A stretch of 64,000 nt of DNA from a virus (IMGVR_UViG_3300029955_000001), one strand, 5' to 3'; positions 48,118-51,931 are shown, numbered from the stretch's first letter. Program-made: numbers and translations. The notes: generated by a model not told the origin, from the sequence alone.

Positions 48118-48259
48118 ACGACAAGATTGACAAGATAGCGAGATTGCTCCCAGCGCTCTATCCAGCTGAGCTACCTAAATCTCATTTCTGAAATATAGAG
48201 TAGGAATCGAACCTACGACCTCTTCATTAACAGTGTATGTAATCTTTATCTGCATTCGT
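48118..48259 (-). ncRNA. Y-RNA module Y1, YrlA-type (T arm, closed acceptor, D arm)
   Basis: GAATGC..TTACA, GGTTCGATTCC, AGCTCAGCTGGATAGAGC, CTTGTC. Confidence 0.85.
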
Positions 48260-48278
48260 AAAGCATTCAAAACTCTGA

Positions 48279-48399
48279 CCTGACAAAATTAATAAGATAT
48301 TTTATAAACTCTTTCGAGTCTATTCCTTGGATTTGAACCAAGTAACTACAGGATTATTCATCCCTCGTATTTGCCCATGTAATATTATTGGCATTCAGG
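48279..48399 (-). ncRNA. Y-RNA module Y2
   Basis: CCTGAATGC-N9-TACA...TTTGTCAGG; T arm CTTGGTTCAAATCCAAG. Confidence 0.75.
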
Positions 48400-48419
48400 T
48401 GTAAACTTTAAAAACTATT

Positions 48420-48512
48420 GGTGACAAGTGTTGTTAAGAAACGGTACTGCTGGGCGAAGAAAGGGAGTCGAAACTCCCGCATCTCTGCGATGTAATCTTA
48501 ACTGCATTCACC
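48420..48512 (-). ncRNA. Y-RNA module Y3
   Basis: GGTGAATGC-N9-TACA...CTTGTCACC; GGGAGTTTCGACTCCC. Confidence 0.78.
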
Positions 48513-48532
48513 GTAAACTCGATTGATCACTT

Positions 48533-48644
48533 CATGACAATTGTTGATGAAATTTCAGCAGTTTCCTGCTCCGCTGGTCATTGCTAGGAACTCTAACCTA
48601 ACTACCTCTCACGGCTTTTCAATGTAATTCCATCTGCATTCATG
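48533..48644 (-). ncRNA. Y-RNA module Y4
   Basis: CATGAATGC-N9-TACA...ATTGTCATG. Confidence 0.7.
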
Positions 48645-48660
48645 TTGTAATCAAAACCTT

Positions 48661-48735
48661 TGGCAGACCGTATGGGTTTCGATCCCATCTAACCACCTTG
48701 AAAGGGTGATGACCTCACCAGAAGTCGAACGGTCC
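48661..48735 (-). tRNA. trnE: tRNA-Glu(UUC)
   Basis: GGACCGT acceptor, TCACC-CT-TTC-AA-GGTGG, CCA encoded. Confidence 0.85.
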
Positions 48736-48746
48736 ATAAAACACTT

Positions 48747-48844
48747 TCCGACAAGTTAAGTAAAGATAGCCTTTCGGCATGGCGAAATATCAGATGTTTC
48801 CATCCAATAGCTTGGCTCGCAATGTAATCCTTACAGCATTCGGA
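48747..48844 (-). ncRNA. Y-RNA module Y5
   Basis: TCCGAATGC-N9-TACA...CTTGTCGGA. Confidence 0.75.
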
Positions 48845-48864
48845 ATAAAACTTTAGAGTACTGA

Positions 48865-48921
48865 ATGACAAAATCAATATTGACGTAAATATTCGTAATA
48901 TGTAATCAATACAGCATTCAG
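48865..48921 (-). ncRNA. Y-RNA module Y6 (minimal, ~57 nt)
   Basis: TGAATGC-N9-TACA, short hairpin, TTTGTCA. Confidence 0.65.
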
Positions 48922-48946
48922 TCAGCACTCGTAACTTGATTGAGTC

Positions 48947-49082
48947 GTAACGACAAGAATTAATAAATCAAGGGTTTCCCCTAGCTAGCGTTCTAACCAA
49001 CTGAACTACAACTCTTTTCAGAATTGACTGGAATCGAACCAGCGACCTCTTGCCTGACTGTAGATTTATCAGCATTCATTAC
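48947..49082 (-). ncRNA. Y-RNA module Y7, YrlA-type
   Basis: T arm GCTGGTTCGATTCCAG, AATTCT-GAAA-AGAGTT closed acceptor, D arm AGTTCAGTTGGTTAGAAC. Confidence 0.85.
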
Positions 49083-49147
49083 AACTCAAAACCGGTATCC
49101 GCACATTAGTGATATGTACAATTGAAACTTTAATTAAATCAGATGTT

Positions 49148-49284
49148 TCGTAACAAGTAATAAGTAAAACATGATTGTAGACCTGAGGGAGTGAGCCTCA
49201 GTGCGTTGCCGTCACGCTGTCCCTCACTTACGAGAGGTATGGGGTCGAACCATATCACTTATGTAGTTTTACTCGCATTTACAA
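49148..49284 (-). ncRNA. Y-RNA module Y8
   Basis: GTAAATGC-N9-TACA...CTTGTTAC; ATGGTTCGACCCCAT. Confidence 0.75.
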
Positions 49285-49323
49285 ACCATCCAAATCTTTG
49301 CATGAAACAATTACCAAGCAGAC

Positions 49324-49432
49324 TATGACAAGGGATAGCTAAGAAGTGTCCTTTCGAACTTTTCCCCCATAAGGTATCTATAAGTAACAGAAATAACTTA
49401 TGGGGGAAAATGTAATCCTAACTGCATTCGCA
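49324..49432 (-). ncRNA. Y-RNA module Y9 (long hairpin cargo)
   Basis: GAATGC-N9-TACA; 14-bp TTTTCCCCCATAAG stem; flanked by a 17-bp perfect inverted repeat. Confidence 0.75.
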
Positions 49433-49469
49433 GAAAGCTTGGTAATTGTTTCAAACTATTTTTGAGTTA

Positions 49470-49605
49470 TTCGACAAGTGGGAATGAATTAACGCGGTTA
49501 CCCGCCAGCTGTCCTATAATTAGACGAGATCCTCATGGGATTACAAGATTAGCCGAAGCACGCTTGTATTCGCTGATTGAAAGTGTAAATTCATCTGCAT
49601 TCGAA
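49470..49605 (-). ncRNA. Y-RNA module Y10
   Basis: TTCGAATGC-N9-TACA...CTTGTCGAA. Confidence 0.75.
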
Positions 49606-49788
49606 ATACTCAAAACTTTTACTACTACATAGGTTGATCACAACCGACTTTACGGATATTACTTCTACACCAACAAGCACCGCTTTTAAACGGGATGTAA
49701 TTGAGGTTAGGTACAGGTATTAACTGCAAACCCTTCCTACGAATTTTACGTGACCACAACTCTTTACTACTACAATTTAAATAAGTGC

Positions 49789-49925
49789 GTATAACAAGTG
49801 TATTAACAAAACATAACAAGACTGAAGTTTCCTCCAGCGCGTCTACCAGTTTCGCCACATCCCTGTAAACAGGAACGATAGGATTCGAACCTATACCCTA
49901 AATGTAGTTTTGTCTGCATTTACAC
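49789..49925 (-). ncRNA. Y-RNA module Y11, YrlA-type with Leu/Ser-like D arm
   Basis: ATAGGTTCGAATCCTAT, TCCTG-TTTA-CAGGG, GGCGAAACTGGTAGACGC. Confidence 0.85.
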
Positions 49926-49950
49926 AACACTTAAACTTGATTGAAAGCGT

Positions 49951-50089
49951 TATAACAAGTATCAACAAAAAACAATACTAATGCTTTATCAGAGGGATTT
50001 GAACCCCATCTTTTTACCTTATGGCAAAACGCTTTTACCGGACATAAGCTATGAACCACAAAAGAACTAATCTTCATTTGCATTTATAA
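49951..50089 (-). ncRNA. Y-RNA module Y12 enclosing a degenerate tRNA in normal arm order
   Basis: ATAAATGC...CTTGTTATA; D-like arm, CAT-containing loop, GGGGTTCAAATCCC; 15-bp flanking inverted repeat. Confidence 0.65.
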
Positions 50090-50119
50090 CGCTTTCAAAA
50101 ACATTATATTTAAACACAT

Positions 50120-50176
50120 TATGACAAGTGTATCGCTGATATCCAGTTAGTGTATGTAATCAGTGAAGCATTCGTA
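50120..50176 (-). ncRNA. Y-RNA module Y13 (minimal)
   Basis: TACGAATGC-N9-TACA...CTTGTCATA. Confidence 0.68.
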
Positions 50177-50221
50177 ACATGTTTAAATATATTGTCTCAA
50201 ATGATAGGTTAACACGGTAAA

Positions 50222-50254
50222 TTTTCACTCCTAGTGTTAGTAGGAGTGAATTTC
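50222..50254 (-). terminator. Hairpin after ro60
   Basis: ATTCACTCCTA...TAGGAGTGAA stem. Confidence 0.55.
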
Positions 50255-50257
50255 TAC

Positions 50258-51931
50258 TTAAATCTCAATTGCTTCGATTTCACCAACCCAATGTTCTGAT
50301 GTCAGCTTATCAGCTGCAAACGCTGCGATAATCTTAAAAACATCATCACTGAAACCACCGATGTTCAGAATATCATTACGTTCTGATGCCTGAGTTGTTC
50401 CGTTTGGTGTAATGTCAATGCATACTAATTTCGCTTTTGGATTGTTAACTTTGAATTTATTCCAAAGCTGCATCACGCCAGTACCTCGACGGCTATTGAT
50501 CGAATTAAACCATGATTCATTATCCGACACATAGATAACGAGATCAGTCGTAAAGTTATTAGCAATCATGAAAGCCAAAGGAGCCGCGCAGTTCGTGCTA
50601 CCGCCGCGAATACTAGCCAGCTTACTAGCATTTGTCATCACAGTGTCACGAGGATTCAATTTAACACTTGTATTGATATCCCCTTCGAACGGAACAACTC
50701 CTACACGTCCTGGATTCTTACGCATGAACGCAGCAGCTACCAAGCCAGCAACATCAATACAACGCGCAGCGGTAGTAGCTGTGCCACGATTACCAGTAAC
50801 AGCATTGGACATTGAACCAGAAACGTCAGGAAATACGGCAATGCTCCCAGGTACTTCAGGAACGTTCACCAATGACAACTCCAAAGCATCCTGAAGCGCT
50901 TCTTTGATCTTGTATGGAATATCAGTAGACTGACTAGTGGCAAGATACGCCATCAATAGCTGATATGGAAATACACGTGCCTTTGCAATCGCTTCTGGAT
51001 CTACCAATCGAGCAGCAATCACATCAGTCATACCTTCCAGTTTAAATACCCCGTGACGCGCAAAGGTATTCAAATTCATACGGATCATGTGCCAGCCAGC
51101 ATTGTGAGCAATAGCAGCCCAATCTGTGTCCGATAGTTCCAACGCAGTCAGCATCTGAAACGGTACTTCTGGGATCGGATTCTTTCGATCTTTCTTGTAC
51201 GCTTCGAATGCAGCTGTGATCGGAGGCAGATTAGCACTCTCGTATGGTTTGCCAATTACCCATGCAAAGAATGCTTCACGTTGAACACCAGTAATGCTGG
51301 AATATTTTGCTTTAAATTCCGCCTCACTAACTTCGATGTGAAGACTACCATTTACTACCGATACAGTCTCTGGCGGATACTCTACAGGCTTAAGAATAGG
51401 CTTCGGGTGAACCATCTTAATCACATCTGCCAGCGATGGATTAGTCCCAACGTACGCCGACAACAATTCCTTTTCTGATGCCGAAGTCAACCAGTTCTGG
51501 ACTAGACGCTTAGTACGAGTACCAAGAGATTTACGACCAGTAGCACCAGACCGCATAATTTGCACGAAGTTACGCAACATCTTACCGTTGTTAATAACAC
51601 GCTTAAAGACTGGTGTGACTTCGTCAGCACCACGACTTGCGAGTGTGGCCGCGAGTAATGCGGGCATATCTTTCATGAATCCGCGTTCACGGCAATAGAC
51701 CGCTACCTTGGCGACGAACGATGGATCATTCTTGGCGCATAGCTCCAAGACTTTTTCGAGTTGTGTATCTGCCGATGCGTAGAATGTCGCATTTAAGCAG
51801 CCTGTCGCAGCATATTGTGCCAAAGCATGTTTATCACTGAACGCATATGCCGGAGCACCTGCATCATTCAGGACATTAGTATTAGGGATCATCTGACCCC
51901 GAGTAGTTTGGAACAATTGGGTATTAACCAT
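50258..51931 (-). CDS. rsr: Ro60/TROVE-domain ribonucleoprotein with vWA domain
   Basis: LAQYAATGCLNATFYA, KDMPALL, RSLGTRTKRLV, HMIRMNLNTFARHGVF, ARVFPYQLL, FPDVSGSM MIDAS, GGSTNC, VSDNESW. Confidence 0.95.
   Translation of the reverse strand: MVNTQLFQTTRGQMIPNTNVLNDAGAPAYAFSDKHALAQYAATGCLNATFYASADTQLEKVLELCAKNDPSFVAKVAVYCRERGFMKDMPALLAATLASRGADEVTPVFKRVINNGKMLRNFVQIMRSGATGRKSLGTRTKRLVQNWLTSASEKELLSAYVGTNPSLADVIKMVHPKPILKPVEYPPETVSVVNGSLHIEVSEAEFKAKYSSITGVQREAFFAWVIGKPYESANLPPITAAFEAYKKDRKNPIPEVPFQMLTALELSDTDWAAIAHNAGWHMIRMNLNTFARHGVFKLEGMTDVIAARLVDPEAIAKARVFPYQLLMAYLATSQSTDIPYKIKEALQDALELSLVNVPEVPGSIAVFPDVSGSMSNAVTGNRGTATTAARCIDVAGLVAAAFMRKNPGRVGVVPFEGDINTSVKLNPRDTVMTNASKLASIRGGSTNCAAPLAFMIANNFTTDLVIYVSDNESWFNSINSRRGTGVMQLWNKFKVNNPKAKLVCIDITPNGTTQASERNDILNIGGFSDDVFKIIAAFAADKLTSEHWVGEIEAIEI

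What the first reader, a model, noticed from the sequence alone, without database searches (positions are those of the whole stretch)
48118..51931. Ro60 gene followed by an array of 13 Y RNAs with a constant docking stem and swappable cargo
Seen: 13 modules directly downstream of the TROVE gene share RAAUGC-N9-UACA at the 5' end (N10 in Y1 and Y12; UAG instead of UACA in Y12) and YUUGUY at the 3' end. The closing pair covaries: G-C in most, A-U in Y8/Y11/Y12. Cargo differs: T arm + loop-closed acceptor + D arm (Y1, Y7, Y11), T arm plus other hairpins (Y2, Y3, Y8), a long hairpin (Y9), minimal ~57 nt (Y6, Y13), and a whole degenerate tRNA (Y12). Known: bacterial Ro60/Rsr binds Y RNAs; YrlA RNAs mimic tRNA in this permuted order (Chen et al., RNA 2014); bacteria typically have one or two. 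Inference: a modular RNP toolkit, one Ro60 with many adaptor RNAs. It could recruit different host RNA enzymes or act as decoys for tRNA-targeting defence nucleases.
Basis: partly seen in the sequence, partly recalled or inferred. Interest (0 to 1): 0.9.

Follow-up and report, generated by a model that had tools for sequence, protein, structure and literature searches.

The report
Phage Ro60 gene with 13 Y RNAs
A jumbo phage from peat carries a Ro60 RNA-binding ring gene followed by 13 different small Y-type RNA genes that share one docking stem, the largest such array among about 175 related loci, where smaller arrays are the rule.

Summary
On the minus strand, a Ro60 gene (TROVE plus vWA domains, 50258-51931) is followed within 2.1 kb by exactly 13 modules. 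Each has RAAUGC-N9/10-UAC at the 5' end and YUUGUY at the 3' end, closed by two helices that covary. These motifs match the Ro60-binding part of the Rfam YrlA consensus. Three modules carry a YrlA-type tRNA-like head, and the other heads differ. Two real tRNA genes sit in the same block. Contigs from four peat metatranscriptomes cover the array.

The novelty claim is only partly right. The same docking stem recurs, on the Ro60 strand, beside nearly every related Ro60 gene I fetched. Bacterial rtcR-rsr-(array)-rtcB operons have a median of 4 modules and at most 9. Related viral contigs have up to 7-8. Thirteen is therefore the top of a continuum, not a new kind. This scan has also followed up 6- to 10-unit arrays on other DNA. 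I found no paper describing arrays larger than four.

Binding to Ro60, processing into separate RNAs, and the "adaptor toolkit or decoy" function remain inferred. The phage cassette has no rtcR or rtcB in the window. Its Ro60 groups with proteobacterial rsr genes.

The parts
50258..51931 (-). Ro60/Rsr gene, 557 aa (TROVE HEAT-repeat ring plus vWA domain with MIDAS motif DVSGSMS)
   Evidence: Pfam vWA_Ro60 7.2e-18 and TROVE 4.6e-07, both above their cut-offs. PHROG 850 2.1e-39. PDB 2nvo D. radiodurans Rsr 5.7e-20, aligned over residues 15-541 in two stretches.
50224..50250 (-). 10-bp hairpin just after the Ro60 stop codon. It is not a canonical terminator on this strand.
50117..50179 (-). Y13, minimal module (51-nt core)
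   Evidence: R1 32 bits; Rfam YrlB 21.4 bits, sub-threshold; fold
49941..50098 (-). Y12. It has a 14-bp outer stem, N10 and UAG. The head has a T arm inside a degenerate tRNA-like domain in normal order.
   Evidence: R1 15.9 bits; Rfam tRNA 19.6 bits, E 0.8
49788..49926 (-). Y11, with a YrlA-type tRNA-like head (T arm, loop-closed acceptor, D arm) and an A-U closing pair
   Evidence: R1 43 bits although not in the training set; Rfam YrlA 24.6 bits
49606..49787 (-). Unexplained spacer of about 180 nt between Y11 and Y10, flanked by GUAGUAGUAAA(A)G direct repeats
   Evidence: Folds no better than shuffles (z 0.10). No R1 or Rfam match.
49467..49608 (-). Y10, with a multi-hairpin head and no tRNA-like motif
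   Evidence: R1 55 bits; fold
49305..49451 (-). Y9, with a long 14-bp hairpin head. The core is 49327-49429, and the whole module is enclosed by an extra 15-bp flanking helix.
   Evidence: R1 63 bits; fold at -55.4 kcal/mol
49147..49285 (-). Y8, with a T arm plus other hairpins and an A-U closing pair
   Evidence: R1 56 bits
48940..49089 (-). Y7, with a YrlA-type tRNA-like head and a 13-bp outer stem
   Evidence: Rfam YrlA 45.3 bits over the full model (family gathering threshold 69); R1 66 bits
48862..48924 (-). Y6, minimal module (53-nt core)
   Evidence: R1 32 bits; Rfam YrlB 18.4 bits
48746..48845 (-). Y5, with a head of two hairpins
   Evidence: R1 51 bits; fold
48661..48735 (-). tRNA-Glu(UUC) inside the array, with CCA encoded
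   Evidence: ARAGORN; Rfam tRNA 41.8 bits
48530..48647 (-). Y4, with a head of hairpins
   Evidence: R1 54 bits; Rfam YrlA 23.6 bits, stems only
48417..48515 (-). Y3, with a head that includes a T-arm-like hairpin with a 6-nt loop
   Evidence: R1 59 bits; Rfam YrlA 23.4 bits
48278..48400 (-). Y2, with a T arm plus two other hairpins
   Evidence: R1 56 bits
48114..48263 (-). Y1, with a YrlA-type tRNA-like head and N10 (a one-base bulge in the inner helix)
   Evidence: R1 74.6 bits; Rfam YrlA 29.9 bits over the tRNA-like part
48012..48089 (-). tRNA-Thr(UGU), which closes the block
   Evidence: ARAGORN; Rfam tRNA 58 bits

Best explanation
This is a phage-borne rsr-yrl cassette: one Ro60 ring protein plus 13 distinct Y RNA genes and two tRNA genes on one strand.

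Shown here:
- The protein is a full-length Ro60.
- Every module closes through an outer helix (R-Y and A-U pairs next to AUGC/UUG) and an inner helix of 7-9 bp. This frames the same internal loop as the Ro60-binding module of YrlA.
- The helices covary while the loop sequence stays fixed.
- The heads differ.
- The same design sits beside related Ro60 genes in many phyla.
- The stretch is present in metatranscriptome assemblies.

Inferred:
- The block is transcribed as one precursor. It is then cut in the U-rich spacers (AGUUU, an RNase E-like RN|WUU site) and at the tRNAs.
- Each Y RNA docks on the outer face of Ro60 through its constant stem.
- Each variable head decides what the particle touches. 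The tRNA-like heads would contact proteins that recognise the tRNA elbow. Other heads would contact other partners, such as PNPase in the RYPER complex.
- The phage thereby gets a set of differently addressed Ro60 particles for controlling RNA decay or tRNA damage during infection.

The cassette most likely came from a proteobacterial rtcR-rsr-yrl-rtcB operon. It lost rtcR and rtcB and grew from about 6 Y RNAs to 13.
For: Ro60 identity.

Module count and specificity: 13 modules and no more, well above chance.

Match to the known docking module: the motifs equal the Rfam YrlA consensus cgAAUGC...CUAc / AcUUGUCg.

Outer helix covariation:
- 94% of cells are paired.
- The covariation score is 0.857, against 0.23 in shuffles (0 of 500 reach it) and at most 0.17 when the partners are slid.

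Inner helix: a module's own two strands give 7.9 contiguous bp. Strands taken from different modules give 4.2 bp.

Recurrence elsewhere:
- Model R1 finds 235 matches in 80 metagenome loci, all on the Ro60 strand.
- The descriptor scan finds 259 plus-strand versus 10 minus-strand hits in those loci, and 352 versus 7 in 80 genome loci.
- In the bacterial loci sampled, including the window's nearest relatives, the flanks are rtcR upstream and RtcB downstream. This is the published rsr-yrlBA-rtcBA layout (PMC7790460).
- A similar mix of head types, with tRNA-like and minimal modules, recurs in the other arrays.

Expression: contigs at 99% identity or more from 4 peat metatranscriptomes of 4 studies cover 47647-50086. 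Some single contigs bridge several modules. Depth differs about 100-fold between neighbouring stretches, which argues against plain DNA carry-over.

Spacer motif: AGTTT occurs 8 times in the spacers against 0.68 expected.

Origin: on a FastTree of 174 Ro60 proteins, the window's protein sits in a clade of 8 (SH-like support 100) with rsr of Telluria, Massilia, Methylobacter and Methyloglobulus. It lies apart from the other viral Ro60s.

Precedent: a Thermus phage Ro60 binds two adjacent Y-like RNAs and host PNPase in vitro (PMC12135203).
Against: - No module reaches the Rfam YrlA gathering score (best 45.3 bits against 69), and none is reported in the gathering-threshold scan.
- There are no binding data.
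- Assembled RNA contigs cannot show discrete small RNAs, their ends or their strand, and some DNA in RNA libraries cannot be ruled out.
- Only the tRNA-like heads have sequence relatives elsewhere. Whether the other ten heads are functional rather than drifting is untested.
- Y12 is weak in the model, and a 187-nt stretch in the array is unexplained.
- No RtcB, RtcR, Tpt1 or PNPase partner is encoded in the window.
Confidence: 0.85

Rival explanations
1. The tRNA-like heads are the point. The array makes competitive inhibitors (decoys) for host nucleases or sensors that recognise tRNA shape, as a phage counter-defence. Ro60 would mainly stabilise them.
For: Y1, Y7 and Y11 have full YrlA-type tRNA-like heads, and three more have a canonical T arm (Y2, Y8, Y12; Y3's is only T-arm-like). 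The block lies among phage tRNA genes and a tmRNA-like gene. Hughes et al. suggest that YrlA, which their anticodon nuclease does not cut, could inhibit that nuclease competitively (PMC7790460).
Against: YrlA-type heads lack an anticodon loop. At least six of the 13 modules have no tRNA-like part at all (Y4, Y5, Y6, Y9, Y10, Y13). The same arrays sit in bacterial repair operons, where a counter-defence role does not apply.
Confidence: 0.2
2. The block is not cut into 13 RNAs. It acts as one long multivalent transcript that loads many Ro60 rings side by side, forming a large particle or condensate.
For: Single RNA contigs span several modules, for example 47777-49312. No promoter-like or terminator-like excess appears inside the array. 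The Thermus phage Ro60 forms higher-order particles with Y-like RNAs (PMC12135203).
Against: Two ordinary tRNAs are embedded and must be cut out by RNase P and 3' processing. Spacers carry a recurrent U-rich motif suited to cleavage. M. smegmatis YrlA and YrlB are processed from one precursor (PMC4201824). Contigs cannot separate a precursor from mature RNAs.
Confidence: 0.1
3. Part of the array is decaying baggage. A captured bacterial cassette duplicated, and several modules (minimal ones, Y12, the 187-nt gap) are relics without function.
For: Non-tRNA heads have no similar sequence in about 630 other modules. Y12 departs from the motif. There is an unstructured 187-nt gap and a motif-only remnant at 47643-47756 scoring 9.6 bits.
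Against: All 13 modules keep both helices through compensatory changes. Minimal modules of 75 nt or less make up 26% of modules in other arrays, so they are a conserved class. The heads are not recent copies of each other.
Confidence: 0.1
4. The modules are structured intergenic repeats unrelated to Ro60, such as REP-like elements, attenuators or a mobile miniature element.
For: They are short, palindromic at the ends and tandemly repeated.
Against: They lie next to Ro60 and on its strand in more than 150 loci from many phyla. They match the YrlA docking consensus. Only one hit lies elsewhere in the window.
Confidence: 0.02

Closest known systems
Salmonella Typhimurium rsr-yrlBA-rtcBA operon (YrlA, Rfam RF02553; YrlB, RF02565; Chen et al. 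2013, 2014, PMC4201824; Hughes et al. 2020, PMC7790460)
   Same: The Y RNAs are encoded just 3' of rsr on the same strand. The docking module has the CGAAUGC / CUUGUC loop between two helices. One class of head mimics tRNA with a T arm, loop-closed acceptor and D arm, and another class is a plain hairpin. The window's nearest Ro60 relatives lie in exactly this operon type.
   Different: There are 13 RNAs rather than 2. No rtcR, rtcB or rtcA is in the window. The host is a jumbo phage. Several head types are neither YrlA-like nor YrlB-like. All modules score below the Rfam thresholds.
Thermus phage phiLo Ro60 with Yrl1 and Yrl2 (NAR 2025, PMC12135203; PDB 9KOP, 9L5Y)
   Same: A phage Ro60 has adjacent Y-like RNAs with a stem-bulge-stem and a CGAA motif. 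Binding and a Ro60-Y-PNPase complex were shown in vitro.
   Different: phiLo has two RNAs, located upstream of the gene. The proteins are only distantly alike (32 bits over about 120 residues).
Deinococcus radiodurans Rsr-Yrn1/Yrn2-PNPase (RYPER)
   Same: A Ro60 ring is tethered by a Y RNA to an effector. There are several small RNAs next to rsr. The protein is the best solved match (2nvo, 5.7e-20).
   Different: The docking helix is of the metazoan type, the tRNA-like parts are ordered differently, and two RNAs are confirmed.
Unannotated Y RNA arrays in bacterial rtcR-rsr-rtcB operons and related phage contigs
   Same: They share the docking motif, tandem layout and strand, and a similar mix of tRNA-like, T-arm-only, hairpin and minimal heads.
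   Different: They are smaller, with a median of 3-4 and a maximum of 9 (Rhodobacteraceae, e.g. cultured Octadecabacter algicola D2-3, locus L158). The bacterial ones sit between rsr and rtcB.
Multi-member Y RNA families of animals (four human Y RNAs; nematode stem-bulge RNAs). This item rests on my own knowledge and was not checked here.
   Same: One Ro60 protein serves several Y RNAs that share the binding helix and differ in the loop or effector region.
   Different: Those genes are dispersed or loosely clustered eukaryotic Pol III genes, not a compact co-oriented array, and they have no tRNA-like heads.

Membership tests
Ro60 / Rsr (TROVE) protein | TROVE HEAT-repeat domain followed by a Ro60-type vWA domain, at full length | tested here: met
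   PF05731 at 29.8 bits (cut-off 23) and PF25045 at 65.5 bits (cut-off 27.7). The alignment to Rsr 2nvo covers residues 15-541 in two stretches.
Ro60 / Rsr (TROVE) protein | MIDAS motif (DxSxS) in the vWA domain | tested here: met
   DVSGSMS aligns with DVSGSMT of Rsr and DVSASMN of Xenopus Ro60.
Bacterial/phage Y RNA (YrlA/YrlB type) | Encoded within a few kb of a Ro60 gene, on the same strand | tested here: met
   All 13 modules lie 79-2140 nt downstream of the Ro60 stop codon on the minus strand.
Bacterial/phage Y RNA (YrlA/YrlB type) | The 5' and 3' ends pair, and a conserved docking loop lies between two helices (Rfam consensus cgAAUGC...CUAc / AcUUGUCg) | tested here: met
   The motifs are invariant in all 13 modules. 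Outer and inner helices are supported by covariation.
Bacterial/phage Y RNA (YrlA/YrlB type) | The published 5' motif GNCGAAN0-1G (Chen et al. 2014) | tested here: inconclusive
   CGAAUG is present in 5 modules, UGAAUG in 5 and UAAAUG in 3. The G at position -2 is mostly absent.
YrlA (Rfam RF02553) | Score at or above the family's gathering threshold (69 bits) | tested here: not met
   The best module is Y7 at 45.3 bits. Y1 scores 29.9, Y11 24.6, Y4 23.6 and Y3 23.4. None is reported at gathering thresholds.
YrlA (Rfam RF02553) | tRNA-like effector domain: T arm, loop-closed acceptor stem and D arm in permuted order | tested here: met
   Met for Y1, Y7 and Y11 only. Their T loops read GGUUCGA(U/A)UCC and their D loops contain GG.
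Bacterial/phage Y RNA (YrlA/YrlB type) | Physically bound and stabilised by Ro60 | not testable with these tools
   This needs RIP-seq or EMSA.
Bacterial/phage Y RNA (YrlA/YrlB type) | Accumulates as a discrete small RNA | tested here: inconclusive
   The stretch is present in contigs of 4 metatranscriptomes and 7 RNA runs hold it. Contigs show neither ends nor strand.
rtcR-rsr-yrl-rtcB RNA repair operon | Divergent rtcR upstream and an RtcB ligase downstream of the Y RNAs | tested here: not met
   There is no RtcR, RtcB or Tpt1 match in the 64-kb window or in the 14 viral loci. Both are present in the nearest bacterial relatives.

The most novel reading that the evidence does not exclude
The phage uses one Ro60 ring as a hub for 13 differently addressed adaptor RNAs. 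Each head recruits or blocks a different host RNA enzyme (PNPase, enzymes that read the tRNA elbow, tRNA-cleaving defence nucleases). Growth from about 6 to 13 heads would record an arms race with host RNA-based defences. Y RNA arrays would then be a general, fast-evolving RNA 'address book' in both repair operons and phages.
Probability: 0.2. Interest if true: 0.8.

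Novelty: new variant of a known kind. Interest (0 to 1): 0.5.

Why it matters
The function of bacterial Y RNAs, and especially of the tRNA-like YrlA head, is still unknown. Work so far rests on species with two Y RNAs. Three results here bear on that.

- One Ro60 can be paired with 13 different heads in a phage.
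- Arrays of 4-9 are normal in rtcR-rsr-rtcB operons of cultured bacteria such as Labrys and Octadecabacter. This gives a natural library of effector heads and tractable organisms in which to test what each head binds.
- Standard annotation misses these genes. None of the 13 passes the Rfam threshold, so hundreds of small-RNA genes beside Ro60 are unannotated.

The phage setting, without the ligase and regulator, suggests that the Ro60-Y RNA part has a use of its own during infection.

Tried and rejected
- Nucleotide search of 46000-54000 against cultured phages found no match.
- No whole genome is held for this window, so I could not look for RtcB, PNPase or further Y RNAs elsewhere in the phage.
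- RNAalifold on the MAFFT and model-fitted alignments recovered only the outer helix. The 3' internal loop varies from 4 to 7 nt, which shifts the register of the inner helix. I therefore tested the inner helix by comparing each module's own strand pair with pairs taken from different modules. I did not build a two-helix model, because that would have needed a long hand-typed structure string.
- The 187-nt gap between Y11 and Y10 looked like a possible degenerate module (GUUUGCAGUUAAUAC resembles the 5' motif). It has no closing helices, no model match and no fold signal, so I rejected it.
- A motif hit at 47752 after tRNA-Thr scores 9.6 bits, lacks the 3' motif and does not fold better than shuffles. 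It is at best a remnant.
- The sigma-70 promoter and intrinsic terminator scan gave nothing useful inside the array.
- BLAST of the heads against about 630 other modules found similarity only in the T and D arms. Head-by-head orthology could not be established.
- Supplementary tables of Chen et al. 2014, which give per-genome YrlA counts, are not held. The 2020 Annual Review on bacterial Ro60 is not held either.

Full report
**What is there**

ORF 50258-51931 on the minus strand encodes a 557-aa protein. It carries the Pfam Ro60 vWA domain (7.2e-18) and the TROVE domain (4.6e-07), both above their cut-offs. It matches PHROG 850. Its best solved match is D. radiodurans Rsr (2nvo, 5.7e-20), aligned over nearly the whole length, and the MIDAS motif DVSGSMS is kept.

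The window is phage DNA. It has a major head protein (PHROG 3231, 4e-193) and phage-type helicases. The head protein is closest to jumbo phages of Burkholderiales: Burkholderia phage FLC9 (322 kb, 58.6% identity) and Ralstonia phages RP12 and RP31. The same DNA occurs in many peat and permafrost metagenomes.

**The array**

Downstream of Ro60, on the same strand, [AG]AATGC-N9/10-TA[CG] occurs 13 times in 2.1 kb. It occurs 5 times in the remaining roughly 126 kb of both strands.

Each 5' motif is matched by a YTTGTY motif. Two helices close the module:
- An outer helix begins with the R-Y and A-U pairs that flank AUGC and UUG.
- An inner helix of 7-9 bp ends just before UACA.

A scan requiring both helices finds these 13 modules and one other hit in the window. 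Shuffled windows give 0.65 hits.

- tRNA-Glu lies between Y5 and Y4.
- tRNA-Thr ends the block.
- A 187-nt stretch between Y11 and Y10 has no structure signal.

**Why these are Y RNA-like**

The Rfam YrlA consensus reads acggCgaAUGCuuggGgaaCUAc ... uucCccaaAaAcUuGucGccg, with two helices around an AUGC/UUG loop. That is exactly the constant part of the modules.

Five modules hit YrlA and two hit YrlB at sub-threshold scores. The best is Y7 at 45.3 bits against a gathering score of 69. No module is reported at gathering thresholds.

Y7, Y1 and Y11 align through the T arm, loop-closed acceptor and D arm of YrlA. The other heads are:
- Canonical T arms with other hairpins (Y2, Y8), and a T-arm-like hairpin with a 6-nt loop (Y3).
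- A degenerate tRNA-like domain in normal order (Y12; weak, tRNA model 19.6 bits).
- A 14-bp hairpin (Y9).
- Multi-hairpin heads (Y4, Y5, Y10).
- Almost nothing (Y6 and Y13, 51-53 nt).

**Covariation**

I tested the outer helix on 28 modules from the window and relatives:
- 94% of cells are paired.
- The covariation score is 0.857, against 0.23 in shuffles (0 of 500 reach it).
- With the partners slid, the score is at most 0.17.

The inner helix could not be put in one register because the 3' loop varies in length. I therefore paired each 5' strand with its own 3' region and with the 3' regions of other modules. Own pairs give 7.9 contiguous bp, and foreign pairs give 4.2 bp. The heads are not recent copies of each other.

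**A model and the relatives**

Covariance model R1 was built from 11 window modules and 7 from a viral contig. With filters off it recovers exactly 13 matches in 47400-53000: 12 at 32-75 bits and Y12 at 15.9 bits. Noise follows at 14.5 bits or less.

Related viral contigs (Ro60 40-51% identical) carry 1-8 matches each, all on the Ro60 strand:
- L002 has 7.
- A complete 305-kb phage contig has about 8.
- Myxococcus phage Mx1 has 2.

In the 80 best metagenome loci, the model finds 235 matches, all on the Ro60 strand and mostly just downstream of the gene. The descriptor scan gives 259 plus-strand against 10 minus-strand hits there. It gives 352 against 7 in 80 loci from bacterial species genomes.

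For loci with at least 2.5 kb available downstream, the counts are as follows:

| Set | Loci | Median modules | Maximum |
|---|---|---|---|
| Bacterial genomes | 68 | 4 | 9 (Rhodobacteraceae, including cultured Octadecabacter algicola) |
| Metagenome contigs | 46 | 3 | 7 |

A similar mix of heads recurs in the other arrays:
- 27% have both T and D arms.
- 19% have a T arm only.
- 8% have a D-arm motif only.
- 45% have neither.
- 26% are 75 nt or shorter.

Thirteen is therefore the largest array among about 175 loci, but it sits at the end of a continuum.

**Context and origin**

In the bacterial loci sampled, the layout is rtcR (divergent), then rsr, then the Y array, then RtcB (in L158 a protein with Tpt1 and RtcB domains). 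This is the published Salmonella rsr-yrlBA-rtcBA design (PMC7790460).

The window has no RtcR, RtcB or Tpt1, and none of the 14 viral loci does.

On a FastTree of 174 Ro60 proteins, the window's protein lies in a clade of 8 with SH-like support 100. The clade contains rsr genes of Telluria, Massilia, Methylobacter and Methyloglobulus, at up to 65% identity. All of these that could be tested sit in rtcR-rsr-rtcB operons. The clade lies apart from the other viral Ro60s.

Together with the capsid's affinity to Burkholderiales phages, this suggests capture from a proteobacterial host operon, followed by loss of the ligase and regulator and growth of the array. This is inference from a quick tree.

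**Expression**

Seven RNA-seq runs hold 41-70% of the stretch's sampled words. In four metatranscriptomes from four studies, contigs at 99% identity or more cover 47647-50086, which spans tRNA-Thr and Y1 to Y12 between them. Some contigs bridge several modules, for example 47777-49312.

Contig depth varies by stretch:
- 45-80 over tRNA-Thr, Y1 and Y2.
- Mostly 4-45 over the rest of the array.
- 2-13 over Ro60.
- 135-810 over 52022-53600.

A hundred-fold difference between neighbouring stretches of one genome argues for RNA rather than DNA carry-over. However, contigs cannot show ends, strand or true levels.

**Processing signal**

AGTTT occurs 8 times in the 10 short spacers, against 0.68 expected, and it lies 5-12 nt before the next module. 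Spacers of other arrays are enriched in TTTGA and TTGAA. The motif fits the RNase E preference RN|WUU, which I cite from my own knowledge. Its role as a cleavage signal is inferred. No sigma-70 promoter or terminator excess lies inside the array.

**Mechanism**

The published model gives Y RNAs two modules: one that binds Ro60 and one that binds an effector (bioRxiv 10.1101/312249; PMC4201824). In D. radiodurans the Y RNA tethers Rsr to PNPase. A Thermus phage Ro60 binds two adjacent Y-like RNAs and host PNPase in vitro (PMC12135203).

The array fits this model, with one docking module and 13 effector modules. What the heads bind is unknown. For the tRNA-like heads, Hughes et al. raise competitive inhibition of an anticodon nuclease as a possibility (PMC7790460). 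That cannot explain the six or more heads that have nothing tRNA-like.

**Novelty**

Phage Ro60 genes with one or two Y-like RNAs are known:
- Chen et al. 2014 reported 355 YrlAs in 254 bacteria and 22 phages.
- phiLo has two.

My four full-text searches found no paper describing arrays of more than four. The library does not hold the main review or the 2014 supplement.

Within this scan the pattern is not new. 184 notes in at least 159 genomes mention Ro60 with Y RNA arrays, and follow-ups describe 6-, 9- and 10-unit arrays beside phage and bacterial Ro60 genes.

I rate this as a new variant of a known kind: the largest array yet, in a jumbo phage, uncoupled from the repair ligase.

Noticed in passing
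window 52022-53600 (minus strand features): This stretch upstream of Ro60 has no long ORF. In four metatranscriptomes its contigs reach depth 135-810, against 2-80 for Ro60 and the Y array. No Rfam family matches 52022-52690. It looks like a very abundant phage non-coding RNA of 0.7-1.5 kb.
   Followed up: partly
window 52700-52888 (-): A tRNA-ordered element (acceptor, D arm, about 90-nt insert, T arm, acceptor) whose insert holds CUUG followed by GAAAUGC...CUACA. This is the Y docking motif in the opposite order, closed by a loop. The Rfam YrlA match is weak (19.8 bits, E 0.67) and model R1 gives only noise. It could be a further Ro60 ligand of permuted design.
   Followed up: partly
window 53833-54100 (-): Sub-threshold matches to permuted tmRNA (30.9 bits against a gathering score of 47) and beta tmRNA. 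ARAGORN did not call a tmRNA.
   Followed up: no
window 19120-19328 (-): A strong HEARO (OMEGA-type) RNA match at 149.7 bits, next to ORF 18636-19166. This is an IS605/IscB-type element inside the phage.
   Followed up: no
window spacers between modules, 48120-50120 (-): AGUUU recurs 5-12 nt upstream of most modules (8 seen, 0.68 expected). Spacers of other arrays are rich in UUUGA and UUGAA. It is a candidate processing signal.
   Followed up: partly
window 49606-49792 (-): A 187-nt insert in the array, bounded by GUAGUAGUAAA(A)G direct repeats, with no fold signal (z 0.10) and no model match.
   Followed up: yes
window 49305-49320 with 49436-49451 (-): Y9 is enclosed by an additional perfect 15-bp helix outside its docking stem. 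Y12 and Y7 have 13-14-bp outer stems. These could be double-strand processing sites.
   Followed up: no
window 47643-47756 (-): A 5' docking motif (AGAAUGC-N10-UACA) without a 3' partner, located after tRNA-Thr. It scores 9.6 bits with R1 and is possibly a remnant of a 14th module.
   Followed up: yes
L158:8969-11032 (Octadecabacter algicola D2-3): Downstream of an 8-module Y array lies a 687-aa ORF with both a Tpt1/KptA 2'-phosphotransferase domain and an RtcB ligase domain. A second RtcB lies beyond rtcR.
   Followed up: no
window 62099-62797 (-): A QueC-like gene (PF06508, 1.5e-07), which may belong to a 7-deazaguanine modification pathway.
   Followed up: no
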